Assembly (NCBI GenBank): GCA_051362555.1
Contig: CM120647.1
Span: forward strand, 14,732,651-14,796,650
DNA from: Lingula anatina
Taxonomy: Eukaryota > Animalia > Brachiopoda
Direction: 5' to 3'
DNA: 64,000 nt
Program-made: the position numbers and the translations under genes
The notes under the pieces: model-generated
What the model saw: the letters and a program-made list of their open reading frames with translations, nothing else
What the model was told of the DNA's origin: nothing
The model's database searches: none
In this document: positions 29,601-62,703 of the stretch, one piece after another
Numbering within the stretch: the first letter of the stretch is position 1
Layout of the letters: every line of letters starts with the position of its first letter

Positions 29601-32229
29601 AATGGTCAAATGAAAGCCATCAATCATTGATGAACAACTAGCACATGCACTGCATGAGTCCAGGTGTAACGAAACTGAGGTCCGTGTAACAGAAACTCCG
29701 TCCTCCATTCTTGAATGGTTAGGGTTAGCCTGACATAATCGGGTCAAAAACTGGGGCGAAACTAAGCAGTAAAAATGAATGGGAAAATGAAGTGTCGGTT
29801 AGAATAAATAAATAAATAAATAAATAAATAAGTTAAATATAAAAAAAAAGCATTTTCCATTTTTCATGACGAAAACTTAAGGGCGAAGAGGTAAAACTCA
29901 AACAATTTCATCCAAGACACTGCTTTCCCATTACCCTAACTATAATGTCATCAGCCAGGGCTTGAGGTGGACCCACAAACTTAAGGTTGCCAGCAAAGTG
30001 CGGCCATCTTGCCAGATTATCAAAGTAATAAATCATTTTGTGTGAAGTAAACGGTGATGGATCAACGTATTTCCAACTTGACAACTCTTTAATTTCGGGC
30101 TGCTAAGCACGGGTTTACGTGCACACGAAAAGCGATTGCTATGCGTGCAAGTAAACTAATAAAATAAGGTTATTATCCGCCACCAAATTCAATTTAAAGA
30201 TCATGGAGTGATAGAGCTCATTCCCATTGAAACTGTCGGTGTACTTAGATCGATCCAAGTCCGTGGGAACTCATGTTGACTGCAATTAGATCAGCAGATT
30301 GACACGTCTCCTTCTGTTGTTGAGTAGAATACAGACAAACAGGTGATTATACGAGGACGTCGGAAACAAGAGGAGGCATGTTTATCTGTTAAACTGCTTG
30401 CATTCAGCGATAGTTCGCGCGGAGGTGGATTGATCTTACGTAGACCTAACGTTACATTGGGAATTAGCCCATAAAATAATAACTGTACTCTGACAGATTG
30501 TCCTTGATTTAGGGCATATGATGGGAATGGGCCATATTTCAATTTTTAAAAGGACTCAAGGTGATTGGCTTCCAGCATTTAATATCTCTGTTTTATTCTG
30601 GAAAACTCTCACGTGATTTCTCGTGATTTCATTTTTTAAATGGTTCAATCCACCATAAAGAAAAATAAAAAAAGCATTTCGGTCACATCATTGGCGTAGA
30701 CATTTTGTGTAAATTTTGCATTTATAAAACTTCAAATATACTGGTATACTTTCCATATTGAAGGGCAGCATAGTTTAAAACGGCTTACACGGTATATAAT
30801 GGGGCAAGTGAAAATTATGCAAATATTACACAAAATGTGCGCGTCACTTACATGACACACACGTTCACTTTTTGTGGAGCGATCCTGACAGACAACTTTC
30901 CGAGTTCAACAATGGTTAACCGCCCAACTGTCACATTTGCTATCAGCGCATATACAACAATGGACTCTTATAACATTCAACATATAACATATGCATATGT
31001 ACCACCGTGGCAATGTTATATTTGTCCTGTCCGATCTAAATAAGAGTCATCTGTACCAAAGTGGTATCATACGCGTTCACGATTTATCAAGGGGTATTCC
31101 ATAGCAATTATAAACTAAAATCACAAAATAGTGTAGGCAAGTCATCTGTATTTTAAATTACAGATATAAAGTTTTCGAAGATAAAAAAGACAGTCCATTG
31201 ATCAATTTAAAAAAAAATGTGTACAGTTTTTTAAAGTAAATGAAAATGCTAATTTTTGTTATCGGCTGACGATCTTGCTATTTTTCAGAACGTTGGAATT
31301 CCTTCGGTAGTACAGGGGACAGTAACGAACTTTAGATATACACCGTAAATCCAGTAAAAAAATAAAAAATAAAAAAACTGATTATTTATTATCCGTCTCA
31401 AGTTGCGATTTAACGCATCCAGTCGCGTAACTCCAACCTTTAAAAGACGCCAATCGGTCGTGTTTAAACCTCTTTCTCTTTGGCGCTTCACTCCACAAAT
31501 ACGTGAACATTTTGGTCATTTTGGTCATACGTTTGAATACAATATTTGAATAACAGCGTTATACCACATTTTCTCTGGTACAATGTTGCACATGGAAGAG
31601 TGCGTTGCAGTGCAACTATCACATTTCTCAACACTTGCAATAATTGAAGATAAAATAACTAAACCCTTTTTTCATAGGTATGGCATTGAAACAGTTTTAA
31701 AGGTTACCTGTTAAAGGCCTGGGCCTGATAACAAACACTTAGTATGATCAAAAGAAAAATAATAATAACTACAGATTTACAATTCATTTGTGACCAGTAT
31801 TTTTAGATCGCGCGAATTCTTAGCGATAGTTTCATGTCCTACACATCTTGTATTGCAAGCAAGTTTTACAATATACATGTATGTCCACGCAGACGTAGAC
31901 CTAAGTTTCTTTTAAAATGGGTACCACCATCACAACTACATGTCTTACTGTAGGTACCAGTATAGCATACAAATAGCCTTACTGTACCGTATGTAGCTTG
32001 ATAATAACGCGATTACTACGGTTTATATCAACCTCGCTGTTGTGAGCAGTTGACTCGGTGGTGAGATTATGTAATGGTACGGTATTTATATTTACTCTAT
32101 ATACCAAACTGTATCACGTTCTTATTTATCTATTTATCTGTTTAATTGTAATTTTATAATCACGTACATGTAGCTTGAGAATACCATGTGCTAGTACAAA
32201 GTGGTTTATATCAATAAAGTTTTTCCTAT

Positions 32230-32564
32230 ATACGCTAGCAGAGATCTGACCGTATGCAGTGACATAACTGCCCCGCTCAGGGAACAATAATCCCTACAGG
32301 CCATGTTGACCTTCTTGACGACTCCAGTAAACACTGATATCGAGACCCATTTTCTGCCACGACGACTGCCCCGGTTTTTGACCCTCAGCTGAAGGGGGGC
32401 AGGCTCTTTTCTCCTTTCACGGACTTTGCGTCAAGGGGTTTAATATCCATTCTGTCTTTAATCCGTTAAAGATATTTCCCGCTTCCCTTGCACAAGCGTC
32501 GGCTGAAGCGTGTGGAGAGAAACCGCACAGTGATCGCAGCCTGATAGTTGAAGTGCCGGTAAGT
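32230..32564 (+). promoter_or_regulatory. Conserved promoter and putative non-coding first exon of ACS1, ending at donor GTAAGT 32559-32564
   Basis: Block conserved upstream of all three ACS copies and ending in a consensus 5' splice donor that pairs with the acceptor just before the ATG. Confidence 0.6.
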
Positions 32565-32848
32565 GTAGATCTACGTGAAGCTTACAATGTCACAAAGGCA
32601 TTATGCAAGTTTTATGTTGTTAACCTCCAATATTTCGACATATTTTTGTAGAGCTTCTCTTTCAAATTGCCCCATAACGGCATCCCAGTATTTAAGGTTA
32701 AGAACTTTGTCCCCATCAGCTGATGATATAAAAAACATTGTTTTATATTTTGGGTGCATAGAAAAGCTGGCAGAATTCTCGGCAAACATGTTTTATATAT
32801 ACAGGTACTTGATACATCAGAAACACAGCATCACAAATTGCAAGAGGC

Positions 32849-33821: not shown

Positions 33822-35513
33822 ATGGCAAGCATGGAGAAAATAAATCAGGCCCATCTTAACAAGAGAAGCTACTACCACATTCCTCAAGTAACGTCAAACG
33901 CTTACGTCACCTTGCACGAGGCGTTCGACATCACAGCGCAGCTATATCCCACCAAAAATGCCGCCATTTTTTACCAGACCCGAAAACAGCGAGAGACTAT
34001 GACATTTTCTGAACTTGAGAAACAGTCCATCTCATTGGCCGAGTCACTCCGTCGCCGTGGTTACTCACGTGGCGACCGCGTGGCATTTAGCTCACCGAAC
34101 TGCATTGAGTTTTTCCCGCTCACTTTGGCTTTGTCTCGTCTAGGATGCAACATGTTCATGTTGAGCAATTTGAACAATCTTTGCGATGACGTGTTGGAAT
34201 ACAAATGCCGCGCTTTAATGTTGTACGTGGGAAATGATAAGGAGAGGGAAGTATACAGAGAAATCGCCTCCAGGGTACCTCAAGGAACCAACCCACTGAG
34301 CGACATCGTCGTTTTTGGACCTTACGGCGACGATGTTCTTGGGACTGGTGCTTCGCTGAACAATCTAATCAAGGGAGAAGGAAATGGCACCCCGATAGAT
34401 GGAGCAGCGGGTCAAGCCGACCCAGACGACCCCATGTGCGTCTTCTTCACGTCTGGTTCTACTGGGAAGCCAAAAGGCATTCAGTTAACCCACAATGCCT
34501 ACATCAACTGGGCCCGAATGGAGGAGGCGTCCTATGCAAGCGCCGACAGCGTCTTTTTTAACGACCGCCCGATGACCTGGATAGGTGGACATCAACTGAT
34601 TCTGGGAATGGCCCTCTATGGGACAACTGCTCTCACTGTCAACTCCAGTATGGTTGTGGCGGAGGGAGAGGTTGACTTCGTTTTAACCATTTTGAACAGA
34701 GAGAGTGTCACCCACACCGCTATGATGCACTACTTCATCGTGGACCTTTTAAACTACAGTGATGCCGTTTCGTTCTGTCAGGTACCCAGTCTGCGCTATA
34801 TCTTAACAGGCGGGCAGATGATGGACAGAGATCAGCTTAAAAAGCTCCTGGCCCTTTTCCCAAACATCAAACACATCACGATCGGGTATGGATCCACCGA
34901 TGCCGGACCCATCGCCCTGCAGGACGTGACGCACGACACCAACAGTGACAAAATGCAGGTGACATACGGCGTTGAAGTGAAAATCGTTGAGCCGGACACC
35001 AATCGCGATGTACCTCTTGGGTCCGCGGGAGAAATATGCGTCCGTAATCCCTTAATATACCACTGCCTTTACGTGGACAACCAGGCGGCTTCCCAGGCAG
35101 CGTTTGACGAGGCGGGCTGGTTCCATACCGGTGACATCGGCACCATGACAACCGACGGTCAACTCTCTGTCTCGGGCCGCAAGGACGATATGATTAAACG
35201 GGCAACTATCAAGGTCTTCCCAGCTGAAGTAGAGGCCGTCTTCGCTCAACACCCAGCCGTTAAAGACGTCATCGTGGTAGGCGTGCCGGATATCCGGTTA
35301 CGAGAGGAGCTCTGCGCATGCGTTATCATGGAGAGCAGCGGGGATGTAGCGGAATTGGAGAGGTGGTGCAAGGAAAAGTTTTCTGTGGGGCCGGATGGCT
35401 TGTCACTGGCGCCGAAGTATTATCTCCAGTTCGAAGAATTCCCTTTAACAGGCACAGGAAAGACGCAACGAAAGACTATTAGACAAAAAGCCATGGAAAA
35501 ACTGAAATTATGA
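33822..35513 (+). CDS. ACS1: AMP-dependent acyl-CoA synthetase/ligase (ANL superfamily, ACSF2-like), CDS in a single exon, 563 aa (560 aa from the ATG at 33831 shared with the paralogs)
   Basis: Uninterrupted ORF with the adenylation motifs FTSGSTGKPKG (P-loop), GYGSTD (YGxTE equivalent), GEICVR, GWFHTGDIG, GRKDDMIK, PAEVE and PLTGTGK (catalytic Lys). The C-terminal segments GVPDIRLREELCACV and EKLKL resemble ACSF2-type enzymes (from memory). Acceptor tctttttcag at 33801-33810 lies just upstream and AATAAA is at ~35583. Confidence 0.93.
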   Translation: MASMEKINQAHLNKRSYYHIPQVTSNAYVTLHEAFDITAQLYPTKNAAIFYQTRKQRETMTFSELEKQSISLAESLRRRGYSRGDRVAFSSPNCIEFFPLTLALSRLGCNMFMLSNLNNLCDDVLEYKCRALMLYVGNDKEREVYREIASRVPQGTNPLSDIVVFGPYGDDVLGTGASLNNLIKGEGNGTPIDGAAGQADPDDPMCVFFTSGSTGKPKGIQLTHNAYINWARMEEASYASADSVFFNDRPMTWIGGHQLILGMALYGTTALTVNSSMVVAEGEVDFVLTILNRESVTHTAMMHYFIVDLLNYSDAVSFCQVPSLRYILTGGQMMDRDQLKKLLALFPNIKHITIGYGSTDAGPIALQDVTHDTNSDKMQVTYGVEVKIVEPDTNRDVPLGSAGEICVRNPLIYHCLYVDNQAASQAAFDEAGWFHTGDIGTMTTDGQLSVSGRKDDMIKRATIKVFPAEVEAVFAQHPAVKDVIVVGVPDIRLREELCACVIMESSGDVAELERWCKEKFSVGPDGLSLAPKYYLQFEEFPLTGTGKTQRKTIRQKAMEKLKL

Positions 35514-36553: not shown

Positions 36554-36784
36554 GTGGAGAGAGCCCAAATGAACTTCACTGAGGCTCAGAGGGAGTGGGC
36601 GGCAGGCTGTCACATGTTGAACCGTCAGGGGGAATCTTCAGAAGTTGCTGCCGCCACTGCCTTCCTCTGCAGCAGAGACGCTTCCTTTATCACCGGCGCT
36701 GATCTCCCGGTAGATGGCGGCTACATAGGCCCTGAAAGGCATGGAAAAGATCGGCCAGATTTCACTGGAATTATTCCTGACTAG
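36554..36784 (+). pseudogene. SDR-A1 remnant: orphan terminal exon 4 only
   Basis: Close match to SDR-A2 exon 4 (51382-51618), with its tttag acceptor and ~170 bp of upstream intron, but with a 6-nt deletion (GGY--IGPE versus GGYTVIGPE). No exons 1-3 are present between the ACS1 stop (35513) and this exon. Confidence 0.85.
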
Positions 36785-40100: not shown

Positions 40101-40159
40101 TGGGACCTGAACGACACGGCCAAGACGGCCCTAATTTTACCGCAGCCGTTCCGGAATAA
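37148..40159 (+). CDS. SDR-B1: classical short-chain dehydrogenase/reductase, 284 aa. Exons 37148-37481, 38940-39038, 39387-39574, 39926-40159
   Basis: Manual splicing with GT-AG sites (phases 1,1,0; 334+99+188+234 = 855 nt) gives a continuous ORF containing TGGASGIG, acidic FLD after beta2 (NAD-type), NCAA, VNIASIS, YNSSK catalytic motif, RVNSVSPG and [18 protein letters not shown] at ~40258. Confidence 0.92.
37545..38700 (-). mobile_element. Degenerate Tc1/mariner (Tc1-like) transposon in SDR-B1 intron 1
   Basis: Minus-strand ORF fragments with GRPRKTT (paired-domain linker) and [15 protein letters not shown] (WPxxSPDLNPIENxW), ending GYPTKY. Degenerate TIRs cacacaaagggcaatagaaatgtcacc / ggttacacttctattgttcagtgtgtg. 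Absent from the same site in SDR-B2 (catatagcag|taat). Confidence 0.88.
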
Positions 40160-41279
40160 GAGCAACAGCAGATGAACACGGTTGGGGCGTTGAGCAAACT
40201 ATGTTATACCTTATATAATATTAAGTATGCTGGAGAGTAATTGTATCATCATCTTGCAATAAATACGTTCAAAATTTTCTGAAGTAAAAAAATTTAGAGT
40301 ATTGTAAAGAAAAAAATTCAATTGCGTCTGTCTTTGTAGGTTTCGGATAATTTCAAAATGCAAATAATCACAAGAAAACTGGTAGTTAGCCATAGTCAAC
40401 GTTACGCTTTTCAATTGATGCTTACCAGTATTTGCGCAAACCGAAATTTCTCGCCAGATATTTTCCGAGGAACTTGAGAGAAGATAGCCACTGTTAAATA
40501 TGTATTTAATGTGTCACTGGTTACGTTTTTCCGCAATTCACCTTTTATATGAGAAAAAATACGAACAATATGTTGTACTCCGGTTTATTGCTGTCAAATA
40601 TTTATAATAACCAATTGCAGAATTTTTCATTCTTCATGACAAGTTTTTACTTTATATCGTATATTATATTATTTGAGTTATGGTTGGTTAAGAATGAATG
40701 TAATCCACTTAATTTTGACACTACCTATGGAAAACGAGTCACTGCCTCCTTTAGGTTAACTGGGCTTGGAGGACTGCGACAGTTTTATCTTGGGTCAAAA
40801 TGGGGTAAATTTTCTGGTCTTATAAGTAAAGATCAATATTTGGCTTTATTTCATTTGTAAATCCGACTTGCACAGTGACAGTATCGTGTCCTAGACAACT
40901 TGTATTGAAAACGATAAAGAAACGATAATATAAGTCCACGCAGACGTACAGTGTATGTTTCTTTTAAAGTAGGTCCAATCATCACAGCTAGACGTCTTGC
41001 TGTAGGTACCAGTCTATAGCATACACGTAGACCTTGCAGTACCTTATGTAACTTGATAATAACATGTTAACTACGGTTTATATCAATTCATTGAACATTA
41101 ATTGTGGGATTATTCTTATGCTTCAATATTTATATTTACTCTTTATATAAAACTGTATCATGCATTTATTTATCTATTTATTTGTGAAATTGAAATTTTA
41201 TGATCACATACTTGATAATGATCGATAATACCATGCAGTAGTACACAGTGTTTTATATCAATCAAGTTTTTTCTATATA

Positions 41280-41584
41280 CGCTAGCTGAGGTATGACCGT
41301 ACTCAGTGACATACTTGCTCATGAATCAATAATCCCGACAGGCCATGTTGACCTCCTTGACGGCTCAAGTAAACACTGATATCGGGACCCATTTTCTAAC
41401 TGCCCTGGTTTTTAGCCCTCGGGTAAAGCGGGACAAGTTCTTCTGTCTAGCGTCACGGACTTTGCGCCAAGGGGTGTGTCATTCATCCATTTAAACATAT
41501 GTCACGCTTCCCTTTGCACAAGCGTCGGCTGAAGCGTGTGGAGAGAAATCGCACAGTGATCACAACCTGATAGTTGAAGTAAGT
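41280..41584 (+). promoter_or_regulatory. Conserved promoter and putative non-coding first exon of ACS2, donor GTAAGT 41579-41584
   Basis: Homologous to 32230-32564 and 58608-58944. Confidence 0.6.
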
Positions 41585-42037
41585 GTAGATCTAGGTGACA
41601 TTGTCACAGACGGTGTCACAGAGGCATTATATGCATGTTTTATGTTGTAAATCTCTAATATTTCGGCATTTCTTTGTCGAGCGACAGTCATCGCAGTATT
41701 TAAGGTGAAGAACATATAGTCCACATTAGCTGATGATTAAAATGCATTGTTTTATATTCCGGGTGATCATAAAAGCTGGCGGGATTCTTCGCAGACATGT
41801 TGTTAATAGTGTATATTTAATACATGTGAAGCTCAGTATCGCAAATTGCTGAATGCCACCTGGAACAGTTACAAGCACACACTCCTGTTATCATGACCTA
41901 CATGTACCTTACTACTGTGAACACCTGTATCGTAGTCCCCTGCTTGTTTAATATTGCTTCACTAGTGCTTTTGACCTAGAGTATGAAACAGAAAACAATA
42001 TATCCCCCCACCTGTCCCTAACGTTAACTTCCTAAAA

Positions 42038-42742
42038 TAGTGTGACGGGGGCTTCTACGTGTGCTAAAAGCGCGTCACTGTAGAGTTATGAACAACTCTC
42101 TTTTCCCTCTAAAAGAAATTTTATTGTGCGCACACGGACTACATCAAGTTAAAGATGTGACCACAATGTCTCTCCCTCAATGTCTCCTTCCAACGGCTTG
42201 GGTACGCTGTTATTTTCCCGACTCGCCGAACACACCGAATGCGGCAGAATGCTGCATTTTTTTAACAAAATAAGGGCGACAGGTGGTTCACATCTCACGT
42301 CAAGGATGGACATTTTTGATTCAACATTTACTTAATTATTGGAAATACTGATTCTAGACCTTCGATTTAAATAGTGTGATTTGCCCGGTTCTTTGATTCT
42401 TAATATTTAATTTTGACCGAACCGGAACTGGTCATTTTCCTGAACTAGCGAAGTGCTTATTAAATACTAATACATGACACCAAGAGATAATCAATTAAAT
42501 CTTTCTATATCTATCTGCTGTTGCTCTGTCCTCTGCTTGCAATTTAATTGACGCGTTTGCCGACCACTAGAGGTCATTAATTACGGCACTCATTCGCTGG
42601 ACTGAGATCGGAAGGTTATTATGTTTGGTCAGTGCTTGAACGGCTAATGAGACTTATGTTGTTTTTGCAATCTTATTGTAACTAATGAATTTTAAATGTT
42701 TTTAAAATTTAAATTAAGTTCTTACTTAAATTTGTAACACTA
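42038..42742. mobile_element. Insertion in the ACS2 5' intron (unclassified TIR element or solo LTR)
   Basis: Absent from the homologous ACS3 intron (~59475). Ends tagtgtgac ... gtaacacta form a short imperfect inverted repeat. No clear TSD. Confidence 0.4.
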
Positions 42743-43296
42743 CCGTGTTATAATAGACAAAATCCTATGGGGAACTATTGAACATATGCCCTATAGGAAT
42801 TCTATAGGACGCCAGTTAAAAATCAATATATAGAGTCAGACAGATGTCCGTCTTTTCTGTCTTTTTCGAAATGGAGTTAAATCGAGTGTCACTTCTGGGG
42901 AGTTGAATGGATTGTTCCAAACATAACATTTTGGTTGATGTAGAAATCTCGTGACGGAAGAGGACTTTAAGATAATTAGCTCTCTTTTATGCACGGCAAT
43001 CGCCTCACATAAAACGGTGCAAAATTCTGACCTGTTTAATCCCTATAAACTTTATTTACCCTCCACCAGGGCCGAGGAGTAATTATATGCACTTTTCTCT
43101 AACGCGACACATAGTAAAGAAATGTGCCAGGAATTAACTTTAGAAAGGACTGTGAATATCAAGTGAAAAATAAATCTCAAGAAAATATATAAAAAAGTGT
43201 GTGTTTTTTTTCTTTCTCTGTTATGATATTTACCGTTGATGCTTTTTGCTTTATTAAGGTAGTGTACTCTTTTTCAGCACACCCGACAGAACAAGC

Positions 43297-49185: not shown

Positions 49186-51618
49186 ATGGCGCGACCTCAA
49201 CCAAAACTAGATGCAAATCACACCAAGGGAAGGTTCAACTCATGCGTGGCAGTAGTCACCGGGGGAGCCTCGGGTATAAACAGGGCGTGTGTCAGTCGTT
49301 TCCTCAATGACGGTGCGTCCGTTGCCTTCCTCGACATCGACCAAGATTCGGGGAAACAGTTGGAGTCTGAGCTTAAGGGGGAGGGGTTAGACGCCGCATA
49401 TTACCACGTCGATGTGTCTAACAGGGACGCGTGTTCCAAGGCCGCGGTAGACATAGCAGACAAACATGGTGGCAGCATTAACTATGTGATAAACGGCGCT
49501 GCGTGTTTTATCTTCAAGGGTGAGTAATCTCGTGCAACACAACTCTTACGGTGCATAGGGCCTTGCAAACAATATAATAGACCTACAACAGTAGTTGTAT
49601 GTAGGTCAACCCAAATGTGCCCTAAGTGTCAGGGCACTATATAAAGCTAGCTTGCTCGCTATAACTTTTCACGTGGTAGCTTTACAGTATTGCTGATATG
49701 GGTTATATATGAAATCAAGATCGAGCTAACAATTCTAAAATCTAGAACCTAGGGTACCAAATGTAAAAAAAAAGTTGGACAAACTTCCTGCACGTTCGCC
49801 TGCACTAAAAACAGTGACTGTGATTTAGATATTTAGATAACATTTTTCCAGGTATGGACGCATCCACGTCAGACTGGGAGAAGACGCTGAATGTGAACGT
49901 GGTTGGATATGCAAACATGGTACAGGCATGTCACCCCTACATGAAGAAAGGTACATAGAGAGCTTGGGACACACTGTCTGGACTTATGTGTTGTGTTTCA
50001 ACTAGCGCAACAGTCTAGCAGTCTCGACTAGCACAATAAACTGCATACCTTCGCCTTATATGCCCCTCTCATGTGAAATTCGTTTACCAAAAATTTACTG
50101 TCAAGATAAAGACTTAATCTATATATATAAAAAAAAAACGCCTTGATATTGACCCTAATTATTGTGTCCTCACAGTTGTATACATAAAGTCATACCATTT
50201 CCAAATATGTTTTAATTTATCATCATTTTCATCAGCCGAGCCGGGCTGCCGCGCTGTCGTTAATATTGCCAGCATCACGGGACACGTACCAAAACGAAAT
50301 CGCTGGACTTACGACGCCAGTAAAGGAGCTGTCTTGCAACTGACCAGGTGTATGGCTCTTGATCTGGCCAAAAACGGGATAAGGGTCAACTCGCGGTGTC
50401 CCCGGCAGTAATAAATACACCTTCGGTGGGTACTCTAGGTAGTAGGCCTACAGTGTATACTGAGTACATATATATTTGTATGCTCATATAGATTTGTGTT
50501 TCCGCCTATGAAAATAACAGCTTGTAATGTAAACATACATTTTCACATCATATGTCATCGTAAAAAATATAAATTAATTATTTTAATACTGATGGAATTG
50601 ATTGCAAGAATGATTCTAATGTGTAAATTATGTTCTACATTCTTCTTTTTAGACCCACTAAATATTCACAAATTTTGAATTTATATCATCTGTGTTCTTT
50701 CTCTCTGCAGCCATTTTCATCTTCCGTTTCCAGCTATCGTATTACTCACTCTTGGATTTGCTGTAGAATTACGCAAGGTCGTCTTATCTGGGCCGTAGCG
50801 ATAGTCCGAAGGTTCAATAGTCCAACGGTTCATTGGTCCGAATGTTCACTATAGAACCTTCGGACCAATGAACCCTTGATTAAAAAAGCGATGAAAATGT
50901 TACCACTTTTCGGACCAATGAACCTTCGGACCAATGAACCTTCGGACTATCGAGACGCCCCCGTCTTATCGACGTGTCAGTGGCAGCACGTTACCTTCGT
51001 TCACCATAAGAAGGCTTTGTGATAAGGCTAAAAGCAAGGGCTCATTTCCAATGCAACAATCGTTTTACGTAAATCGATCCAACTCAGCGGGAACTCTCGC
51101 TGAATGCAATCAGTTCAACAGACTAACACGCCTCCTCCTGGCGTTGAGTAAAATATAAAAAGCTTGCGATTATACGAGTACGTTTGCAACAAAAAGGGGC
51201 ATGTTAATCTATTAAACTGATTGCATTCAGTAAGATTCCCTGCGGAGATCGATCTACGTAGAAAGATAGCTCCAGCTCGGCTGAGTGTAGGCCTAATTCT
51301 ACAGCAAATGTAAGAGTGACGCAAGCTCCAGTGTGAGATTTATTTATAACTCCATTTTATCTTGGGTTGACCCTGATTTAGGTGGAGAGAGCTCAAATGA
51401 ACTTCACTGAGGCGCAGAGGGAGTGGTCGGCGGGTTGTCACATGATGAACCGCCAGGGGGAATCTTCAGAAGTTGCCGCCGCCATTGCCTTCCTCTGCAG
51501 CAGAGACGCTTCCTTCATCACCGGCGCCGATCTCCCGGTAGATGGCGGCTACACGGTGATAGGCCCTGAAAGGCATGGGAAAGATGGGCCAGATTTCAGT
51601 GGAAATATTCCTGACTAG
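49186..51618 (+). pseudogene. SDR-A2: SDR gene with a +2 frameshift in exon 3 (pseudogene, null allele or assembly error). Exons 49186-49519 (possible upstream ATG at 49114), 49852-49950, 50236-50425, 51382-51618
   Basis: Exon structure matches SDR-B, but exon 3 is 190 nt instead of 188. It reads AAC TCG CG GTG TCC CCG (extra CG at ~50392-50395), giving a premature TAA at 50409-50411. Motifs TGGASGIN, NGAA, VNIASIT and YDASK are otherwise present. Confidence 0.82.
50789..50961. mobile_element. Foldback/Mutator-like MITE with 9-bp TSD in SDR-A2 intron 3
   Basis: TSD cgtcttatc at 50780-50788 and 50962-50970. Inverted arms are built from 16-bp units (ttcggaccaatgaacc and its complement). Confidence 0.8.
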
Positions 51619-52220: not shown

Positions 52221-55200
52221 ATGGAGCGTCGTCAGCCTAAACTAGACCAGTCGCATACAAAAGACAGGTTTAAAGGACGCGTTGCCGTGGTAACCGGGGG
52301 AGCCTCTGGTATCGGTAAGGAGTGCGTCAAACGCTTCCTTAATGACGGCGCGTCCGTGGCCTTTCTAGACACCAATCAAGAAGCGGGCCAACTGCTTGAG
52401 GCGGAGCTGAAAGCGGCCGGACATGACGCCATATTTTACCATATCGACGTCTCGGACAGGGACGCATGTTTCGGGGCCGCAAAAGACATAGCAGGGAAGC
52501 ATGGTGGCTGCATCCACGCTGTGGTTAACTGCGCTGCAAGTTTTCTATTTAGAGGTAATTTATATCATTTCCACCGGGGAGAAAGGTTATCTATGCTTTA
52601 ATATACATATAGCAGTAATAACTGGATTTTAATTTTCATGTACTCAGTTTGCTTAACAATAAAGCACACCTTATTGAGATTGGTAATTACATTATATATA
52701 TATTAGTGACTAATTTCCACGGTCAGTTTTTGATCTGGTAGGGAGGGGCTTAATGGGAGGTTGAGATATGAGCAACCACTGTTTCAACTGTTAATAAAAC
52801 TTCAGATAACACAACTCCAGGTCACCTAAGTTATTTTGCAAGGCAAGAAATAAACAGACAGCCCCATACATCGTATCACATATTATGTGGTCGTATTTCA
52901 TGGCATTTCCCCCAGATTTAGGCTTCGTTCACATGCAATGTCTATTTTCTAATTTCTATTTTCTATTTGCGCTATCTTATGATCACGGTCTGTGCCCTGA
53001 ATATCCCGCCGCGTAATTATTGGCAGCGCGAGCCAGTTACTTATAGTAACTTATAGTAACTGGCTCGCGCTGCCAGTAATTACGCCGCGGGATATTCAGG
53101 CCACAGACCGCAAATAGAAAATAGAATTTAGAAAATAGACATTGCATGTGAACGAAGCCTTAGATGCGTCCAGCACTGTTTCAGCTGTTTATACAACTTC
53201 AGATCATTTCAGAGATTTTACAAGGCAAGAAATAAACAAAAATGCCCAATGTATTATAATACATTTGCTCATATTTCATGGCATTTTTCCCAGCTTTAGA
53301 CGCGTCCATGTCCGACTGGGAGACGATAATGGGTGTGAACGTGGCGGGCTCTTCAAATGTGGTACAGGCATGTTATCCTTTTATGAAGAACGGTATGTGA
53401 GCTGCGTTAACGTTGACTCCATTTTTATGTACAGACACAGATGTGTCTGTACATATTGCCATCACCTGCGTCTGTCGTCGCCGATGCCGATGCCGATGCC
53501 GATGCCGATGGCGATGCCGATGCCGATGCCGTCGCCGTGCACTTTCCTTGTAAACACGATAAGTGGAAGGCAGTTTTACTTTTTGGCTTTATATTTACAG
53601 AGCTGATGAATATTCATAAAACGCAGGTCAAGTTCGAAAATCAGCATGATCGGGCCATTATTGTAGAAGTTATGCTGTTTTTTCACTTTTCAGCATATTT
53701 TTCACATTTCCTCAGATTCAATTCTTAGGCATGTTAACAGTCTCATTATTAAACTAATAAGATACGTAAAAGTTTTTGTTTGACATTTCCTGCATCTTTA
53801 CAACATTGTTAGTTGATTTTGTAAAAATGATGGTAAACTTGTTATCGTGTATTGTGTAATAAAGTGTCAAAAATGGAAATAAACTCATATCATTGCAGTT
53901 TGTCAGATTCAATCATTCATTATGTTCAGAATCTCAGAATGGAAGAAATTGGACATTTAACACTGCTCTATTGATATTTTTCCCATCTCATCAATTTTCT
54001 TAGTTGATCATATAAAAATTGCAGTAAACTGTTAATTTTGTTTTATGTTAAAAATTGTTAAAAATGGAAAAAAAAAACATTTCAGAACAGTGCTGTCTTG
54101 TTTACATTTTGGCATTTTCAAGTTGTGACTTAGAGGTTCCATGGGCCTGAAGACCTTTGCTAGTCACATTTTCTGAATATCCATGATACTAATATTTTAT
54201 TATTAAAAATTGATGGTCATTATGCTGTTAAACATAATGTAATATTGCATCAAAATTTGAAAAAAACCTATTTTGGGCACTTCTCCCATGATGACCATTT
54301 AAGAAAAACCATGTCACTTACTGTTCTCAAACAGTACAGTAAATATATATATATATAGATGTGTCTGTACATATTGCCATCACCTGCGTCTGTCGTCGCC
54401 GTCATCGCCGTCGCCGGTGCCGTGCACTTTCATTGTAAACACGATAAGTGGAAGGCAGTTTTACTTTTGGGCTTTATATTTACAGAGCTGATGAATATTC
54501 ATAAAACGCAGGTCAAGTTCGAAAATCAGCATGATTGGGCCATTTTTGTAGAAGTTATGCTTTTTTTTCACTTTTCAGCATATATGCAACACTGTAAACA
54601 CATTCCAAAGAAAACCGATAGGCCTGTTGTCATGAAACTCACAGGAGTAATCTATCTTACTAAAATGCAGGTCAAGTTCGAAAATCGGCATGATCGGGCC
54701 ACTATTTTAGTAGTTATGCTGTTTTTTCATTTTTCAGCATATATGCAACACTGTAAACACAATATAAGAAAAACAGATAGGCCAATTGTCATTAAACTCA
54801 CAGGAGTGGTCAATCTTACTAAAACGCAGGTTGAGTTCGAAAATCAGCATAATCGGGCCATTATTTTAGAAGCAATGCTGTTTTTTCACATTTCCTCAGA
54901 TTAAATTCTTAGGCATGTTAACAGTCTTATTGTTTTACTAATAAGATACATAAAAGTGTTTGTTTGACATTTCCTGCATCTTTACACCATTGTTAGTTGA
55001 TTATGTAAAAATGATGGTAAACTTGTTATCGTGTATTGTGTAATAAAGTGTCAAAAATGGAAATAAACTCATATCATTGCAGTTTGTCAGATTCAATCAT
55101 TAACTATGTTCAGAATCTCAGAATGGAGGAAATTGGACATTTAACACTATTCTATTGATATTTTTCCCATCTCATCAATTTTCTTAGTTGATCATATAAA

Positions 55201-57168
55201 AATTGTAGTAAACTGTTTATTTTGTTTTATGTTAAAAAAGTGTTAAAAATGGAAATAAACCCATGTCAGAACAGTGCTGTCTTGTTTCACATTTCCTCAG
55301 ATTCAATTCTTAGGCATGTTAACAGTCTCATTATTTAACTAATAAGACATGTAAAAGTGTTTGGTTGACATTTCCTGCATCTTTACAACATTATTAGTTG
55401 ATTATGTAAAAATGATGGTAAACTTGTTATCGTGTATTGTGTAATAAAGTGTCAAAAATGGAAATAAACTCATATCATTGCAGTTTGTGAGATTCAATCA
55501 TTCACTATGTTCAGAATCTCAGAATGGAGGAAATTGGACATTTAACACTATTCTATTGATATTTTTCCCATCTCATCAATTTTCTTAGTTGATCATATAA
55601 AAATTGCAGTAAACTGTTTATTTTGTTTTATGTTAAAAAATTGTTAAAAATGAAAAAAAAAAAACATTTCAGAACAGTGCCGTCTTTGTTTACATTTTGG
55701 CATTTTCAAGTTGTGACTTTGAAGTTCCATGGGCCTGAAGACCTTTGCTAGTCACATTTTCTGAATATCCATGATACTAATATTTTATTATTAAAATTGA
55801 TGGTCATTATGCTGTTAAACATTATGTAATATTGCATCAAAATTTAAAAAAAAAACTATTTTGGGCACTGCTCCCATGATGACCATTTAAGAAAAAGCAT
55901 GTCACTTACTGTTCTCAAACTTACAGGAAAGAAACATGGGACTAAAATACAGCTTCAGTAGGCAATGCAGTCTGTTTGGTAATTCTTACTGCCAGTTAAA
56001 CGGTTTGACATATTGGCATTTTCAAAGTGTGACTTTGAAGTTCCACGGGCTTGTTTATTATTGCATCAAAATTGGCAAAATGACCTCTTTTGCATCCTTT
56101 TTTCTGTTATTTTGTCTGTACATTTGACAGCTTTGCTGCCTTGTTAATACCTCAAATGACATTAGATGTTTGAAATGTGCAAAAAAAGTGTCGTATCAAA
56201 TGCATTGCACTTATTTCTCTTACTTATATAGTTTCTTGCGGAACACAAAGATGTGCTTACCAACGTCATTGTGATTTCTCTTCTGAATAGATTGCTTTGT
56301 CTCCTCCAACACAATGTATTGCCTCGCCTAGCGTATTTCAACTGCAAATCATATTGAATGATTTCATGCACATAACATGTGAATATCCGTTGACGATCAC
56401 AATCAATGCATTATGATTTTTCTAACACAATGGCGCTTCATTTTAAACCCAGAGGGACCAGAAACGCGCGCCGTAGTAAATATCGCCAGCGTATCTGCCC
56501 ATTGCAGTCAGAAGCAGCACTGGACGTACAACAGTAGCAAAGGGGCGATCTTACAGCTTACCAAGTGCATGGCGCTTGACCTAATCAAAGACGGAATACG
56601 GGTCAACTCTGTTTCTCCTGGAATAATTAATACCCCTGCTGTAGGTAGATTAGATTAGAAAAATATTTTTTTGCCTGTCTATATTAATTAATTAAATGTT
56701 GCACCGGTAAGTCAAGGAAACAAATAAATGAATCATTTTCTTTTCTAGATTATCACGTGCGTATTCATCTTCTGTTATCGTTTTCTACTTTTCGCTCGTC
56801 TTTTTTGAAAACTTATTTTCATTTCTTACTTTTCTTATATTTTCCTTTCTTTCATTCTCGCAATATAACACTGTTTATACGGTTTTTAAATACAATATTT
56901 GTAAATATCCACTTATCTATTTGAATTTCTTTAGCTTGACGCTATCGTTGGAAGTGACGAAATTCAGAGAGCGTTTTACGGTAGCACCCACATGATGAAC
57001 CGAAACGGTGAATGTTCAGAAATTGCCGCCGCCATCGTCTTCCTCTGCAGCACAGACGCTTCCTTTATCACTGGCGCTGATCTCTCGGTAGATGGCGGTT
57101 ACACAGCGATGGGACCTGAACGACACGGCCAAGAAGGGCCTAATTTTACCGCAGCCATTCCGGAATAA
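52221..57168 (+). CDS. SDR-B2: classical SDR paralog, 284 aa. Exons 52221-52554, 53294-53392, 56453-56640, 56935-57168
   Basis: Same exon sizes and phases as SDR-B1 (334/99/188/234), continuous [11 protein letters not shown] and YNSSK intact. Intron 2 is expanded by a ~2.7 kb repeat insertion. Confidence 0.9.
52921..53159. mobile_element. Near-perfect palindromic MITE with TTA target-site duplication (PIF/Harbinger/Tourist-like) inserted in a defunct copy of SDR-B2 exon 2
   Basis: ggcttcgttcacatgcaatgtctattttcta ... tagaaaatagacattgcatgtgaacgaagcc, with TTA at 52918-52920 and 53160-53162. The internal arms are also inverted-complementary. Confidence 0.9.
53422..56145 (+). mobile_element. Second, composite copy of the same HINE-like family in SDR-B2 intron 2
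   Basis: Same termini as 45608-48836. The element restarts at ~54358, has an internal ~380-bp tandem duplication (~54890-55660) and a (GATGCC)n tract at 53482-53530. The empty site is visible in SDR-B1 intron 2 (gactcc...taatgcctcaa). Confidence 0.72.
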
Positions 57169-58029
57169 TAGCAACAGTTGATGAATAGGGTTGGGGCGTT
57201 CAGCAGTCCAAGCAGCAATCCCCAACAAACTATGTTTTATCTTATACCTGTATAATATCAAGTCATGCTGGAGAGTAATTGTATCATCATCTTGCAATAA
57301 AAACGTTCAAAATTTTCTAATGTCAAAAAATTTAGAATATTGTAAAGAAAAAAAATCAATCGCGTCTGTTTTTGTAGGTTTCGGATAATTTCAAAATGCA
57401 AATAATCACAAGAAAACTAATAGTTAGCCATAGTCTACGTTACGCTTTTCAATTGATGCTTACCAGTACTCTGCGCAGACCCAAATTTCTCGCCAGATAT
57501 TTTCCGATGAATTTTAGGGTAAATAGCCAGTGTTAAATATGTATATAATGTCTCATTGGTTAGGTTTTTCCACAATACACCTTTAATATGAATAAAAAAT
57601 ATGGGCAATATGCTGTCAAATATTTATGATAACGAATGATAACAAATTGCAGAACTTTTTTTATTCTTCATGATAAGTGTTTACTTTGTATCGTATATAT
57701 CATTATTACCTAGTCACTGTTTATTAAGGATGAACTAGGCTTGGAGGACTGCCACAGTTTTATCTTGGGTCAAAATGGGGTAAATATTCTGGTCTTATAC
57801 GTAAAGATCAATAGTTGGTTTTATTACCTTTGTAAAGCGGACTTGCACAGTTGCAATTGTATTGAATACAATAATATGCGCACACAGACGTACGTTTCTC
57901 TTTAAGTGGGACCTATCATCACAGCTAGAATTCTCACTGTAGGTAATGGCATACCATATACAAGAAGACCTAACAGTACCTTATGTAGCTTGATTATAAC
58001 ATGTATATTACGGTTTATATCAACCTACT

Positions 58030-58468
58030 ACCCTCTACCAGGGTGGCATGCAGACATTACAGGAAAAAACGCCAAAAGCCACCCTGTGATTTTTGGCCAC
58101 ATGGAAGTGATTAAATCCTCACGCGCACTGAAGGCATTGTACCCGCTCTGTGGGGAACAGTTACAGGAGATTCTTCAGTCTACTTCAATAAGTAGCAACA
58201 AGCTATTCAGCAGGGGCTATTTTTATCTGTCACAAAAGAGCAAGTTATTTAAATCAGATCAAATAACTGTCTTGGTTGCTGTCAAAGGAACTAGGCTGGG
58301 GTCTGTTAAGTGGCAGTACCTGAGCAGCTACGCAAACAATTTACCAGCCATGTAATCAACCTAGAGATTTTAGCACAAGATCAGAGATAGTAGACTGATC
58401 GTTAAGCAAATCTAAAGACATATCTGTGAATACCTTGTGAAAAGAAATCTGTGGCCCTAGTAGGGGGT
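58030..58468. mobile_element. TIR element with 11-bp TSD upstream of ACS3
   Basis: TSD atcaacctact at 58019-58029 and 58469-58479. TIR accctctaccaggg / ccctagtagggggt (12/14). The empty site is at ~32027 upstream of ACS1. Confidence 0.75.
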
Positions 58469-58607
58469 ATCAACCTACTGTTGTGAGCAGTTGACTCGGC
58501 ATATATCTATTTATTGGTGAAACTGAAACTTAAATTGATATATGTAACTTGATAATACCATGTACTAGTACACTATGGTTTATATCAATCAAGTTATTCC
58601 TCTATAA

Positions 58608-58944
58608 GCTAGCAGAGGTATGACCGTACGCAGTGACATACTTGTCCCGCTCATGGATCAATAAACCCGACAGGCCCCGTTGACCTCATTGACAGCTCCA
58701 GTTCACACTGATATCGTGACCCATTTTCTGCCAGGACGACTGCCCCGGTTTTCGACCCTCAGTTGAAGGGGAACAAGTTCTTCTGTCTGGCGTCACGGAC
58801 TTTGCGTCAAGGGGTGTAATATCCATTCTATCATTCATTATATTCATTCATTAACGATATTTCACGCTTCCCTTTGCTCAAGCGTCGGATGAAGCGTTTG
58901 GGAAGAAATCGCACAGTGATCACAACCTGATAGTTGAAGTAAGT
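58608..58944 (+). promoter_or_regulatory. Conserved promoter and putative non-coding first exon of ACS3, donor GTAAGT 58939-58944
   Basis: Homologous to the blocks upstream of ACS1 and ACS2. Confidence 0.6.
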
Positions 58945-60040
58945 GTAGATCTACGTGAAAATGTCACAGACGATCGGAATCACAGAGGCATTATGCATGT
59001 TTTACGTTGTTAACCTCCAATATTTCGTCATGTCTTTGTAGAGCGTCTATTTCAAGTTGCTCCAGACAGGCATCGAAGTACTGAAGGTTATAAGAACATA
59101 TAGTCCAAATCAGATGATGATTAAAAACATTGTTTTATATTCCGGGTGATCATAAAAACTGGCGGGATTCTTTGCAGACATGCTTTAACTTCTATATACC
59201 GTACTAGTATTAAGAATGTGTATATTTACCCCGTGGACCATTTGAAGATTACACTGCGATTAATGCGGTGGGAAATACAAAAGAGGGAGTGTATAATGAT
59301 AGGGTCGCTAAACGATTGTTGACGGCATATAGTAACTAGCCTAATCCCCTGGTCGCCTGGGTAGCCAAACGATTGTTGACGGCATATACAGGTACAAGAA
59401 TTGTCTGATTAGACATGTATCCAGACTATGAAACTGAAACCGATCTATCCCCCACCTGCCCCTAACGTAAAATTCCCCCCAAAAATGGACAAAAACCTAT
59501 GGGGAACTAACGAGCATACACTGTATGTCCTATGGGAATTCTTTAAGACGCAGATAAAATCAAAATATAGAGTCTGATAATGACAGATGCGTCAGTGGGT
59601 TTATGTCCGTCTTTTCTGTCTCTTTCGAAATGGAGTTCAATCGAGTGTCACTTCTGAGGAGTTGAATGGATTGTTCCAAACATAAAATTTGGGTTGATAT
59701 AGAAATCTCACGACGGAAGAGGATTTTAAAATAATAAACTCTCTTTTACGCACGACAACCGCCTCACATAAAACGGTGCAAAAAGCTGACCTGTTTTTCC
59801 TCTTAAATTTCTTTACCTTCTACCAAGGACGCGGATTAATTTAATTGCACTTTTTTTTCTAAAGCGACACACAGTGAAGAAATGTGACAGGAATTAACTA
59901 AAGACAGAACTGTGAACATCAAGTGAAAAATAAATCTCTAGAAAAAAAATTTGAAAAGTTTTTTTTCTCTCTTTCTATTATGATATTTACCGTTACTGCT
60001 TTTTGTTTTTTTAAATAGTGCACTCTTTTTCAGCGCAAGC

Positions 60041-61723
60041 ATGGATAAAATTAATCGGGCCCATCTTAACAAGAGAAGCTACTACCACATTCCTCAAGTA
60101 ACGTCAAACGCGTACGTCACCCTGCACGAGGCGTTCGACACCACAGCGCAACTATATCCCACCAAAAATGCCGCCATTTTTTACCAGACCCGAGAGCAGC
60201 GAGAGAGTATGACATTCTCTGAACTTAAGAAACAGTCCATCTCATTGGCCGAGTCACTCCGTCGCCGTGGTTACTCACGTGGCGACCGCGTGGCATTTAG
60301 CTCGCCGAACTGCATTGAGTTTTTTCCGCTCACTTTGGCTTTGTCTCGTCTAGGATGCAACATGTTCATGTTGAGCAATTTGAACAAGCTTTGCGATGAC
60401 GTGCTGGAATATAAATGCCGCGCTTTAATGCTGTACGTGGGAAATGATAAGGAGAGGGAAATATACAGAGAAATCGCCTCCAGGGTACCTCAAGGGACCA
60501 ACCCACTGGGAGACATCGTCGTTTTTGGACCCTACGGCGACGATGTTCTTGGGACTGGTGCTTCGCTGAACAATCTAATCAAGGGAGAAGGAAATGGCAC
60601 CCCGATAGATGGAGCATCGGATCAGGTCGACCCAGACGATCCCATGTGCGTCTTCTTCACGTCTGGTTCCACTGGGAAGCCGAAAGGCATTCAGTTGACT
60701 CACAATGCCTACGTCAACTGGGCCCGAATGGACGTTGTGTCCTACGCAAGCGCCGACAGCGTCTTATTTATCGACCGTCCGATGACCTGGTTAGGTGGAC
60801 ACGGGCTGATTATGGAAATGGCTGTATTTGGGACAACCGCTCTCACTGTCAGCTCCAGTCTTGTTGTTGCGGAGGGAGAGGTGGACTTCGTCTTCACCAT
60901 CTTGAAAAGAGAGAGTGTCACCAACACCGTTATGATGCACTATTTCATCGTGGACCTTTTAAACTACAGTGATGCTGTTTCGTTCTGTCAGGTACCCAGT
61001 CTTCGCCATATCGCAACAGGCGGGCAGGTGATGGACAGAGATCAGCTTAAGAAGCTTCTGTCCCTTTTCCCAAACATCAAACAGATCACGGTCGGGTATG
61101 CATCCACAGATGCCGGACCGATCGCCATGCAGGACGTGACGTATGACACCAGAAGTGACAAAATGCAGGTGATAGACGGCGTTGAAGTGAAAGTCGTTGA
61201 GCCGGACACCAATCGCGATGTACCTCCTGGGTCCGCAGGTGAAATTTGCGTCCGTAACCCCATGATTTACCGCTGCCTTTACGTGGACAACGAGGCGGCT
61301 TCCCAGGCAGTGTTTGACGAGGCGGGCTGGTTCCATACCGGTGACATTGGTGCCATGACCACCGACGGTCAACTCTCTGTCTCGGGCCGCAAGGACGATA
61401 TGATTAAACGGGCTACTGTCAAGGTCTTCCCAGCCGAGGTAGAGGCCGTCCTCGCTCAAAACCCAGCCGTTAAAGACGTCATCGTGGTAGGTGTACCGGA
61501 TATCCGGTTACGAGAGGAGCTCTGCGCATGCGTTATCATGGAGAGCAACGGGGATGTAGCGGAATTGGAGAGTTGGTGCAACGAAAAGTTTTCTGTGGGG
61601 CCGGATGGCTTGTCACTGGCGCCCAAATATTATCTTCAGTTCGAAGAATTTCCCTTAACAGGCACCGGAAAGACTCAACGAAAGTCTATAAGAGAAAAGG
61701 CTTTAGAGAAACTGAACTTATGA
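60041..61723 (+). CDS. ACS3: acyl-CoA synthetase paralog, single coding exon, 560 aa
   Basis: Colinear with ACS2. Motifs intact except GYASTD. Acceptor ctttttcag ends at 60033 and AATAAA is at ~61747. Confidence 0.93.
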   Translation: MDKINRAHLNKRSYYHIPQVTSNAYVTLHEAFDTTAQLYPTKNAAIFYQTREQRESMTFSELKKQSISLAESLRRRGYSRGDRVAFSSPNCIEFFPLTLALSRLGCNMFMLSNLNKLCDDVLEYKCRALMLYVGNDKEREIYREIASRVPQGTNPLGDIVVFGPYGDDVLGTGASLNNLIKGEGNGTPIDGASDQVDPDDPMCVFFTSGSTGKPKGIQLTHNAYVNWARMDVVSYASADSVLFIDRPMTWLGGHGLIMEMAVFGTTALTVSSSLVVAEGEVDFVFTILKRESVTNTVMMHYFIVDLLNYSDAVSFCQVPSLRHIATGGQVMDRDQLKKLLSLFPNIKQITVGYASTDAGPIAMQDVTYDTRSDKMQVIDGVEVKVVEPDTNRDVPPGSAGEICVRNPMIYRCLYVDNEAASQAVFDEAGWFHTGDIGAMTTDGQLSVSGRKDDMIKRATVKVFPAEVEAVLAQNPAVKDVIVVGVPDIRLREELCACVIMESNGDVAELESWCNEKFSVGPDGLSLAPKYYLQFEEFPLTGTGKTQRKSIREKALEKLNL

Positions 61724-62369
61724 AAAGTTACCCTGTAGAATGATTGAATAAAGACATTTAACAAGGGGGGGAATATTGATTGGTTTGAATTGTTTGCAAA
61801 AGGAAATATTTATTGACAAAGGACACATTTCGGGAAAAAATATCATTTGTACGAGAAAAAGAAATGTGTGATGAACACGAAAGACCCTTACATTGTATAG
61901 TTTCGCCAGCTGAAGTGTATTTACAAGTTCAGTAGAATTGTGGAGATACTTTTGGTTAAAGCATGTCAAAAATAAATACTTTATCAGACAATATTACATC
62001 TGCATTCAGCTATTGACAAGATATAATCAATTAAAAAAGAAAAGGCGAAATATCAGGTGCTTAGGTTTTATCGTTTCGGGTAGTTACACAATGTACATGT
62101 ACCCTTGTGTAAAAAGGAACATGCGTTTCAAATTTTACTTTTTATCCCTTAAGGGTAAAACGCAAGCCGTAAAATCTCCATAGATAAATTAATACCGTCA
62201 GCTTTTGTTTGTTGAGGCAACGCATTTTAAATTCTAGTCTGCCATTATTTTCTCTCCACTCCCTTCCAAATCTCGTTTGATTCCTCGTTAAGTCACGATG
62301 TTTTCGATCGTCTGTCTCGGATCAGGGCCAGTGTTAAAACACTGCATGCGGGATTCCATATGTTACAGC

Positions 62370-62703
62370 ATGGCGCGACCTCAACCAAAACTAGATGCAA
62401 ATCACACCAAGGGAAGATTCAACTCGTGCGTGGCAGTAATCACCGGGGGAGCCTCGGGTATAAACAGGGCGTGTGTCAGTCGTTTCCTGAACGACGGTGC
62501 GTCCGTGGCCTTCTTCGACATCGACCAAGATGCGGGGAAACAGTTGGAGTCAGAGCTTAAGGCGGAGGGGTTAGACGCCGCGTATTACCAAGTCGATGTG
62601 TCTAACAGGGACGCGTGTTCTAAGGCACTGGTAGACATAGCAGACAAACATGGTGGCAGCATTAACTATGTGATAAACGGCGCTGCGTGTTTTATTTTCA
62701 AGG
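62370..62703 (+). CDS. SDR-A3 exon 1 (possible upstream in-frame ATG at 62298); remaining exons not in the window
   Basis: 334-nt exon nearly identical to SDR-A2 exon 1 (MARPQPKLDANHTKGRF...TGGASGIN...NGAACFIFK) ending at donor G|gtgagt. Confidence 0.82.

What the first reader, a model, noticed from the sequence alone, without database searches (positions are those of the whole stretch)
31800..62703. Tandemly amplified ACS + SDR-A + SDR-B module: candidate animal metabolic/biosynthetic gene cluster
Seen in sequence: two unrelated enzyme families alternate in fixed order and orientation (ACS1-[SDR-A1]-SDR-B1-ACS2-SDR-A2-SDR-B2-ACS3-SDR-A3...), with homologous intergenic DNA, so the three-gene unit was duplicated as a block at least twice. 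Established: ANL enzymes activate carboxylic acids to acyl-AMP or acyl-CoA, classical SDRs perform NAD(P)-dependent carbonyl/hydroxyl redox, and this pairing is common in microbial catabolic and biosynthetic clusters, while clusters of non-homologous enzymes are uncommon in animals. Inference: the module may encode a linked activate-then-oxidise/reduce pathway for a specialised acid (diet-derived toxin, pheromone, pigment or defensive metabolite). The substrate cannot be read from the sequence.
Basis: partly seen in the sequence, partly recalled or inferred. Interest (0 to 1): 0.85.

Follow-up and report, generated by a model that had tools for sequence, protein, structure and literature searches.

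The report
Duplicated enzyme block in a brachiopod
A block holding one acid-activating enzyme gene and two dehydrogenase genes was copied three times in a row in the genome of the lamp shell Lingula, but the two kinds of gene are switched on in different RNA samples, so they are likely neighbours copied together rather than a single pathway.

Summary
The array is real: ACS1-[SDR-A1]-SDR-B1-ACS2-SDR-A2-SDR-B2-ACS3-SDR-A3, all on +, in Lingula anatina (proteins 96-100% identical to RefSeq). Flanks are homologous and synonymous divergence is the same for ACS, A and B copies (dS 0.14-0.20), so one block was copied; the three repeats are one juxtaposition, not three. A and B are paralogues. A1 is only a last exon; A2 is frameshifted here but whole in RefSeq. 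The pathway reading failed the tests I could run. ACS-to-SDR-A read depth differs about 45-fold between RNA runs, and SDR-B is near silent where ACS2 is expressed. Sixteen of 22 Lingula ACS records lie on scaffolds without this SDR family. Bacterial relatives of the SDR sit beside sugar-catabolism genes (0 of 128 nearest neighbours is an ANL enzyme). No scaffold-forming enzyme was found. One oddity stays: only these SDR-linked ligases carry Asp at the normally invariant Mg-binding Glu (9 of 135 sequences). Best reading: a young tandem duplication joining two independently expanded enzyme families. A real cluster is not excluded (about 15%).

The parts
31822..32841 (+). Upstream region of ACS1 (promoter and inferred untranslated exon 1); start of unit 1
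   Evidence: 75% to 40874-41849 and 79% (32124-32795) to 58501-59187; donor-like site homologous to the one used in ACS2; splice not seen directly
33822..35513 (+). ACS1, ANL-family ligase, 563 aa, one coding exon
   Evidence: Pfam; 98.7-99.4% to RefSeq XP_013404922/XP_013404923; depth 1-5 in X1, X2
36554..36784 (+). SDR-A1 remnant: last exon only, with a 6-nt in-frame deletion
   Evidence: the same exon with the same deletion is fused behind ACS1 in RefSeq model XP_013404922
37148..40159 (+). SDR-B1, 284 aa; exons 37148-37481, 38940-39038, 39387-39574, 39926-40159
   Evidence: 98% to XP_013401239; introns 2 and 3 skipped in a few reads
40874..41849 (+). Upstream region and untranslated exon 1 of ACS2 (donor at 41578); start of unit 2
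   Evidence: GT..AG joint 41578-43278 in 24 (X1) and 17 (X2) reads
43297..44979 (+). ACS2, 560 aa, the most expressed copy
   Evidence: 99.8% to XP_013404926; depth 9-20 in X1, X2, 0 in X4, under 3 in X7
49186..51618 (+). SDR-A2; exons 49186-49519, 49852-49950, 50236-50425, 51382-51618; frameshifted in exon 3 in this assembly
   Evidence: whole in RefSeq XP_013404936; exon 1 depth about 10 per bin in X7, X8
52221..57168 (+). SDR-B2, 284 aa; exons 52221-52554, 53294-53392, 56453-56640, 56935-57168
   Evidence: 99% to XP_013404950; depth 0-2.4
57886..59187 (+). Upstream region of ACS3 (donor-like site at 58938); start of unit 3
60041..61723 (+). ACS3, 560 aa
   Evidence: 99.5% to XP_013404927; reads laid here in X1 carry ACS2 letters at 7 of 7 listed sites, so its own expression is not shown
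62370..62703 (+). SDR-A3 exon 1; gene runs past the window end
   Evidence: 100% to the first exon of whole RefSeq models XP_013404952 and XP_013380981

Best explanation
The array is three tandem copies of one block holding an acyl-CoA-ligase-like gene and two paralogous short-chain dehydrogenase genes, which likely became neighbours once and were then copied together while working in separate reactions. Shown: block structure, equal age of the copies, purifying selection, loss of A1, uneven expression. Inferred: the SDR family had already split into types A, B, C/D and E in Lingula; one member of a separately expanded ligase family came to lie at the edge of this SDR array; unequal crossing-over then copied ACS+A+B as a unit, with birth and death since. 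Predicted chemistry: the ligases adenylate a small aromatic or medium-sized acid and transfer it to CoA; the SDRs are NAD-preferring dehydrogenases of a sugar, polyol or other alcohol.
For: Equal dS for ACS1/2/3 (0.17, 0.19, 0.14), B1/B2 (0.20) and A2/A3 exon 1 (0.15) against 1.05-1.34 for A vs B; dN/dS 0.16-0.29. Depth per Gb on the stretch: ACS 7.6, 0, 0.75, 0.8 and SDR-A exon 1 2.0, 1.2, 9.7, 9.3 in X1, X5, X7, X8; SDR-B exon 1 0, 0, 3.2, 1.1. In one search ACS2 is at 9-20x in X1 and X2 while the B1 exon-1 bin is 0 in both. Of 22 Lingula ACS records, 16 lie on 7 scaffolds with no record of this SDR family; of 26 SDR records read, 14 lie on 11 scaffolds with no ACS record; only 2 scaffolds hold both, and their ACSs are the window's types (scaffolds told apart by length only). 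Named animals in the ACS list (Actinostola, Owenia) and in the SDR list (Liolophura, Corticium, Nematostella, Desmophyllum, Styela, Dysidea, Lineus) do not overlap except Lingula. Nearest same-strand neighbours of 80 bacterial SDR relatives: arabinofuranosidase 14, solute-binding protein 12, 2-hydroxyacid dehydrogenase 11, Amidohydro_2 10, other glycosidases 6, AMP-binding 0 of 128 scanned; the amidohydrolase's best model is L-fuconolactonase, below cut-off. No Pfam family above cut-off in 150 of 196 upstream reading frames.
Against: All intact copies are under purifying selection, which also fits a selected cluster. The Glu-to-Asp change marks exactly the SDR-linked ligases. SDR-A is expressed at low level in X1 together with ACS2, and reads from another SDR type (C/D-like by two codons) reach 18-23x in X1; C/D genes share the 190-kb RefSeq scaffold with ACS copies. 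An ANL gene lies within 5 kb in 7 of 80 bacterial loci (no background control). The runs come from three studies with different libraries and unknown tissues, 6-26% of each was read, and paralogues cross-map. Both homologue lists are cut at 120 rows and only about 8000 candidates were scored, so non-overlap of species is weak. Bacterial relatives are only about 50% identical and are related to each other.
Confidence: 0.65

Rival explanations
1. The block is a true two-step pathway module: an SDR would oxidise an alcohol, aldehyde or sugar to an acid that the Asp-type ligase activates, or the SDR would act on the acyl-CoA; amplification diversifies or raises output.
For: Fixed order and strand; dN/dS 0.16-0.29; derived Asp only in the linked ligases and derived Gly-to-Asn in the SDR-A cofactor motif; animal clusters with a CoA ligase exist (oro bundle, PMC12833800); a C/D-like SDR is expressed with ACS2 in X1.
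Against: About 45-fold swing in ACS:SDR-A depth and near-silent SDR-B where ACS2 is on; A1 lost while ACS1 is kept; no scaffold or acyl-acceptor enzyme found in the window; sugar-type bacterial context.
Confidence: 0.15
2. The block was kept because more copies of both a ligase and dehydrogenases would help clear dietary or sediment compounds: a detoxification locus under dosage selection, with no shared intermediate.
For: Both families are expanded in Lingula; RefSeq has four ACS models on one scaffold against three here, two of them ACS1-type, which may be copy-number variation; structure matches are aryl-acid ligases.
Against: Only one ACS copy is clearly expressed; no induction or population data; copies have diverged rather than stayed identical.
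Confidence: 0.15
3. The repeats are an assembly artefact from uncollapsed haplotypes.
For: RefSeq records of these families often come in near-identical pairs on two scaffolds.
Against: Units differ by dS 0.14-0.20 and by different intron insertions, while the paired records differ by about 1-2%; all three ACS types recur in RefSeq.
Confidence: 0.02

Closest known systems
Class I adenylate-forming (ANL) CoA ligases: 4-coumarate-CoA ligase, aryl-acid adenylating CahJ/FscC, ACSF2-like
   Same: PF00501+PF13193; predicted fold matches 4CL 5BST, TM 0.80, 22% identity; P-loop, Asp438, Arg453, Lys547 present.
   Different: Belongs to a separate marine-invertebrate clade (Lingula, Actinostola, Owenia); below every NCBIfam cut-off shown; Asp360 where 374 of 374 published sequences have Glu (PMC6122825, passages read).
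Classical SDRs, PRK08265-like (NF006121; PDB 8EH2)
   Same: Best NCBIfam and PDB match; TGxxxGxG, Asn127-Ser157-Tyr170-Lys174 and Asp50 in B.
   Different: Score 226-237 is under the 294 cut-off; closer relatives are an uncharacterised animal family and Chloroflexota/Armatimonadota proteins at about 50%; type A has Asn at the last Gly.
Animal biosynthetic clusters and bundles (sponge oro; octocoral terpene clusters)
   Same: Non-homologous metabolic genes close together; oro includes a CoA ligase (PMC12833800, parts 1-2 of 5 read), octocoral pathways use SDRs (PMC12685057, four passages read).
   Different: Those are conserved across producer species, hold a scaffold or coupling enzyme and were tested in vitro; here linkage is seen in one species, with two families and no known product.
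Tandem segmental duplication with birth-and-death of gene copies (general model, recalled)
   Same: Head-to-tail units, equal age, one decayed copy, unequal expression.
   Different: The unit holds two unrelated enzyme families, and intact copies remain under purifying selection.

Membership tests
Class I adenylate-forming enzymes | AMP-binding and C-terminal domains, two-domain fold | tested here: met
   Pfam above cut-off; model pLDDT 86.5, Foldseek E 8e-41 to 4CL
Class I adenylate-forming enzymes | Invariant Gly, Asp, Arg, Lys and the P-loop | tested here: met
   G403, D438, R453, K547, K218 in ACS1 and the same in ACS2, ACS3
Class I adenylate-forming enzymes | Mg-binding Glu of the YGxTE motif | tested here: not met
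   Asp in all 3 window copies and 6 RefSeq counterparts; Glu in 125 of 135, Ser in 1. Acidic group kept; effect unknown. Glu-to-Gln and Glu-to-Ala cut activity 50-fold or fully in other enzymes (PMC6122825)
Acyl-CoA synthetase (activity) | ATP- and CoA-dependent thioester formation | not testable with these tools
   needs an assay
Classical SDR | TGxxxGxG cofactor motif | tested here: met
   met in B1, B2; type A has TGGASGIN, last Gly replaced
Classical SDR | Asn-Ser-Tyr-Lys tetrad (motif recalled) | tested here: met
   present in A and B
PRK08265 subfamily | Score above the curated cut-off of 294 | tested here: not met
   236.7 and 226.1 bits
Animal metabolic gene cluster | Adjacent genes from non-homologous enzyme families | tested here: met
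   two families; A and B are one family
Animal metabolic gene cluster | Co-expression of the members | tested here: not met
   six runs of unknown tissue, low depth, so provisional
Animal metabolic gene cluster | Linkage conserved across species or older paralogues | tested here: inconclusive
   absent for older Lingula paralogues; no other animal genome could be read for gene order
Animal metabolic gene cluster | Scaffold-forming or coupling enzyme nearby | tested here: inconclusive
   none in 150 of 196 upstream frames; short exons can be missed and DNA past 64000 was not available
Animal metabolic gene cluster | Members act in sequence on one metabolite | not testable with these tools
   needs assays

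The most novel reading that the evidence does not exclude
This is the first brachiopod metabolic gene cluster: a re-tuned ligase with Asp in place of the otherwise invariant Mg-binding Glu, co-amplified with an SDR array (including the C/D types just outside the window) that supplies or modifies its acid.
Probability: 0.15. Interest if true: 0.65.

Novelty: new member of a known kind. Interest (0 to 1): 0.3.

Why it matters
As a plain tandem duplication it matters little, but it shows that repeated ACS-SDR order is one event copied and not repeated evidence for a pathway. Two leads are worth an enzymologist's time: an uncharacterised marine-invertebrate ligase clade whose Lingula branch changed a residue reported as invariant, and a widespread animal SDR family whose bacterial relatives point to sugar oxidation. 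If the pathway reading were true it would be a cluster caught while forming, in a phylum for which my searches found no described cluster.

Tried and rejected
No whole genome was held, so the array could not be extended and gene order in relatives could not be read. The exon-1 search missed the A, C/D, E and F types and briefly suggested that no intact SDR-A exists; the full-length search overturned that. The run index listed no RNA holder; raw-read runs of the same species label were laid instead, 6 of 9. The A2 frameshift could not be checked in reads: the indel table was filled by repeats and 9 rows were hidden. Recent horizontal transfer of the SDR was considered and set aside: it has introns and relatives in sponges, cnidarians, a chiton, a nemertean and an ascidian (quick tree, careful search unfinished); the origin of the ligase clade with its intron-free coding region was not resolved. 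Luciferase or NRPS identity: matches are no better than to other ANL enzymes. The representative search added no names. Earlier scan findings: none. Literature searches for Lingula with acyl-CoA synthetase or SDR, for a like cluster and for brachiopod metabolites or gene turnover (listings only) found nothing on this locus. Two cluster papers (PMC12490828, PMC10262820) were not held and were not read. No complex prediction was sent, since binding is not claimed.

Full report
Identity and anatomy. The three long ORFs are AMP-binding enzymes. Their closest database relatives are Lingula anatina RefSeq proteins, 98.7-99.8% identical to ACS1, ACS2 and ACS3, so the window is from another assembly of L. 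anatina or a very close form. The SDRs have four exons. B1 and B2 are whole 284-aa genes, 98-99% identical to RefSeq models. A1 is a lone last exon. A2 has two extra bases in exon 3, whereas three RefSeq A2-type models are in frame there; this is a private null allele or a sequencing error, and the reads did not decide it. A3 continues beyond the window and is whole in RefSeq. A and B are paralogues at 64% identity.

Duplication. Non-coding homology crosses the SDR-B to ACS junction and repeats at about 9 and 17 kb. dS is 0.14-0.19 among ACS copies, 0.20 for B1/B2 and 0.15 for A2/A3 exon 1 (10 synonymous, 7 non-synonymous differences, so imprecise), against 1.05-1.34 for A vs B; dN/dS is 0.16-0.29 throughout. 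One ACS+A+B block was therefore copied at least twice, long after A and B split. RefSeq holds four ACS, three B and two A gene models on a 481,582-base scaffold, and two ACS, two A and four C/D models on a 190,326-base scaffold. The locus is thus an SDR array wider than the repeated block. Gene order on those scaffolds could not be read.

Is the linkage old? Lingula has 22 records of this ligase clade on 9 scaffolds and 26 SDR records read (one more unread) on 13 scaffolds; only the two above hold both. These counts include isoforms and probable haplotype pairs, and scaffolds are told apart by length only. Quick trees show both families expanding within Lingula: SDR types A, B, C/D and E have stems of 0.26-0.41 changes per site, the window's ACS clade a stem of 0.44 and inner branches under 0.05 (the SDR tree used 59 rows, the ACS tree 40, chosen from the hit lists). 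The adjacency could have arisen anywhere along that stem; it is not shared with older paralogues. Named animals in the ACS list and in the SDR list overlap only in Lingula, which is weak evidence because both lists are cut.

Expression. Six of nine listed raw RNA runs were laid; tissues are not given. ACS2 is transcribed from the + strand with an untranslated first exon, at 9-20x in X1 and X2, 0 in X4 and under 3x in X7. Reads on ACS3 in X1 carry ACS2 letters at 7 of 7 listed sites. On the second stretch, depth per Gb was ACS 7.6, 0, 0.75, 0.8; SDR-A exon 1 2.0, 1.2, 9.7, 9.3; SDR-B exon 1 0, 0, 3.2, 1.1 for X1, X5, X7, X8 (from bin means). The ACS:SDR-A ratio moves from 3.8 to 0.08. Against my reading: A is not silent in X1, and reads piling on A2 exon 4 in X1 (18 of 18 at one site) carry letters that give Ala-Val as in C/D-type proteins, so another SDR type is expressed there with ACS2. 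The same letters are also common in X7 and X8, where ACS is low. Libraries differ and depths are small.

Likely chemistry. The ligase model (pLDDT 86.5) matches 4-coumarate-CoA ligase and aryl-acid adenylating enzymes best, at 20-25% identity, with many other ANL enzymes close behind; the substrate class is an inference only. Four of five residues reported invariant in 374 ANL enzymes (PMC6122825, passages) are present. The fifth, the Mg-binding Glu, is Asp in 9 of 135 aligned sequences, and these nine are the window's three and their six RefSeq counterparts. Purifying selection argues against a dead enzyme, but activity is untested. The SDRs have the catalytic tetrad and an Asp after strand 2, which by the recalled SDR rule favours NAD(H) and so oxidation. 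Eighty bacterial loci of the closest relatives were fetched (best 80 of 202). Of 131 nearest same-strand frames, 128 were scanned (three overlapped the SDR itself): 14 arabinofuranosidases, 6 other glycosidases, 10 amidohydrolases, 11 2-hydroxyacid dehydrogenases, 12 solute-binding proteins, one enoyl-CoA hydratase, no AMP-binding enzyme. An ANL gene lay within 5 kb in 7 of 80 loci. This suggests an ancestral sugar dehydrogenase, not an acyl-CoA enzyme; the loci are not independent, and Lingula copies may have drifted.

Surroundings. 150 of 196 upstream reading frames of 52 codons or more gave four weak Pfam hits, all under cut-off. No scaffold or coupling enzyme was seen.

Comparison. Validated animal clusters are conserved among producer species and were tested in vitro; the oro bundle includes a CoA ligase and its acyltransferase, and the same paper notes conserved neighbourhoods that are unlikely to be pathways (PMC12833800, parts 1-2 of 5). 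Octocoral clusters pair terpene cyclases with oxidative enzymes (PMC12685057, passages). This locus meets only the adjacency test. Searches found no paper on it; subscription papers and supplements were not seen.

Verdict. Observation confirmed; pathway reading unsupported but open. Best explanation 0.65, true cluster 0.15, dosage-selected detoxification locus 0.15, artefact 0.02. Interest 0.3.

Noticed in passing
window 34899-34901 and homologous codons in ACS2, ACS3 (residue 360 of ACS1): Asp replaces the Mg-binding Glu of the YGxTE motif, only in this subclade; ACS3 also has Ala for the motif's Gly.
   Followed up: partly
window 49186-49519, 62370-62703: All SDR-A copies, here and in RefSeq, have Asn at the last Gly of TGxxxGxG yet show dN/dS 0.19 in exon 1.
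   Followed up: partly
window 45600-47250, 53420-56150, 63070-63810: A dispersed repeat with 159-163-bp tandem units in introns and spacers; RNA reads from many genomic copies pile up to 800x.
   Followed up: no
window 52920-53160: MITE-like element with 52-nt inverted ends (98%), flanked by TTA, inside a duplicated piece of the SDR-B2 exon-2 acceptor; Harbinger-like by recalled target site.
   Followed up: partly
window 37600-38690: Decayed Tc1/mariner-like transposase remnant in SDR-B1 intron 1 (PF01498, E 0.006, under cut-off).
   Followed up: partly
RefSeq XP_013404922 (P0122): The RefSeq model fuses ACS1 to the orphan SDR-A1 exon; no such splice was listed in four runs, so it is probably a prediction error.
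   Followed up: partly
L001-L080: Uncharacterised bacterial SDR family (Chloroflexota, Armatimonadota, Actinomycetota) beside arabinofuranosidase, lactonase-like and 2-hydroxyacid dehydrogenase genes: candidate aldose dehydrogenase of non-phosphorylative sugar breakdown, with animal relatives at about 50% identity.
   Followed up: partly
window 1-31800: No recognisable protein family found; microsatellite-rich DNA.
   Followed up: partly
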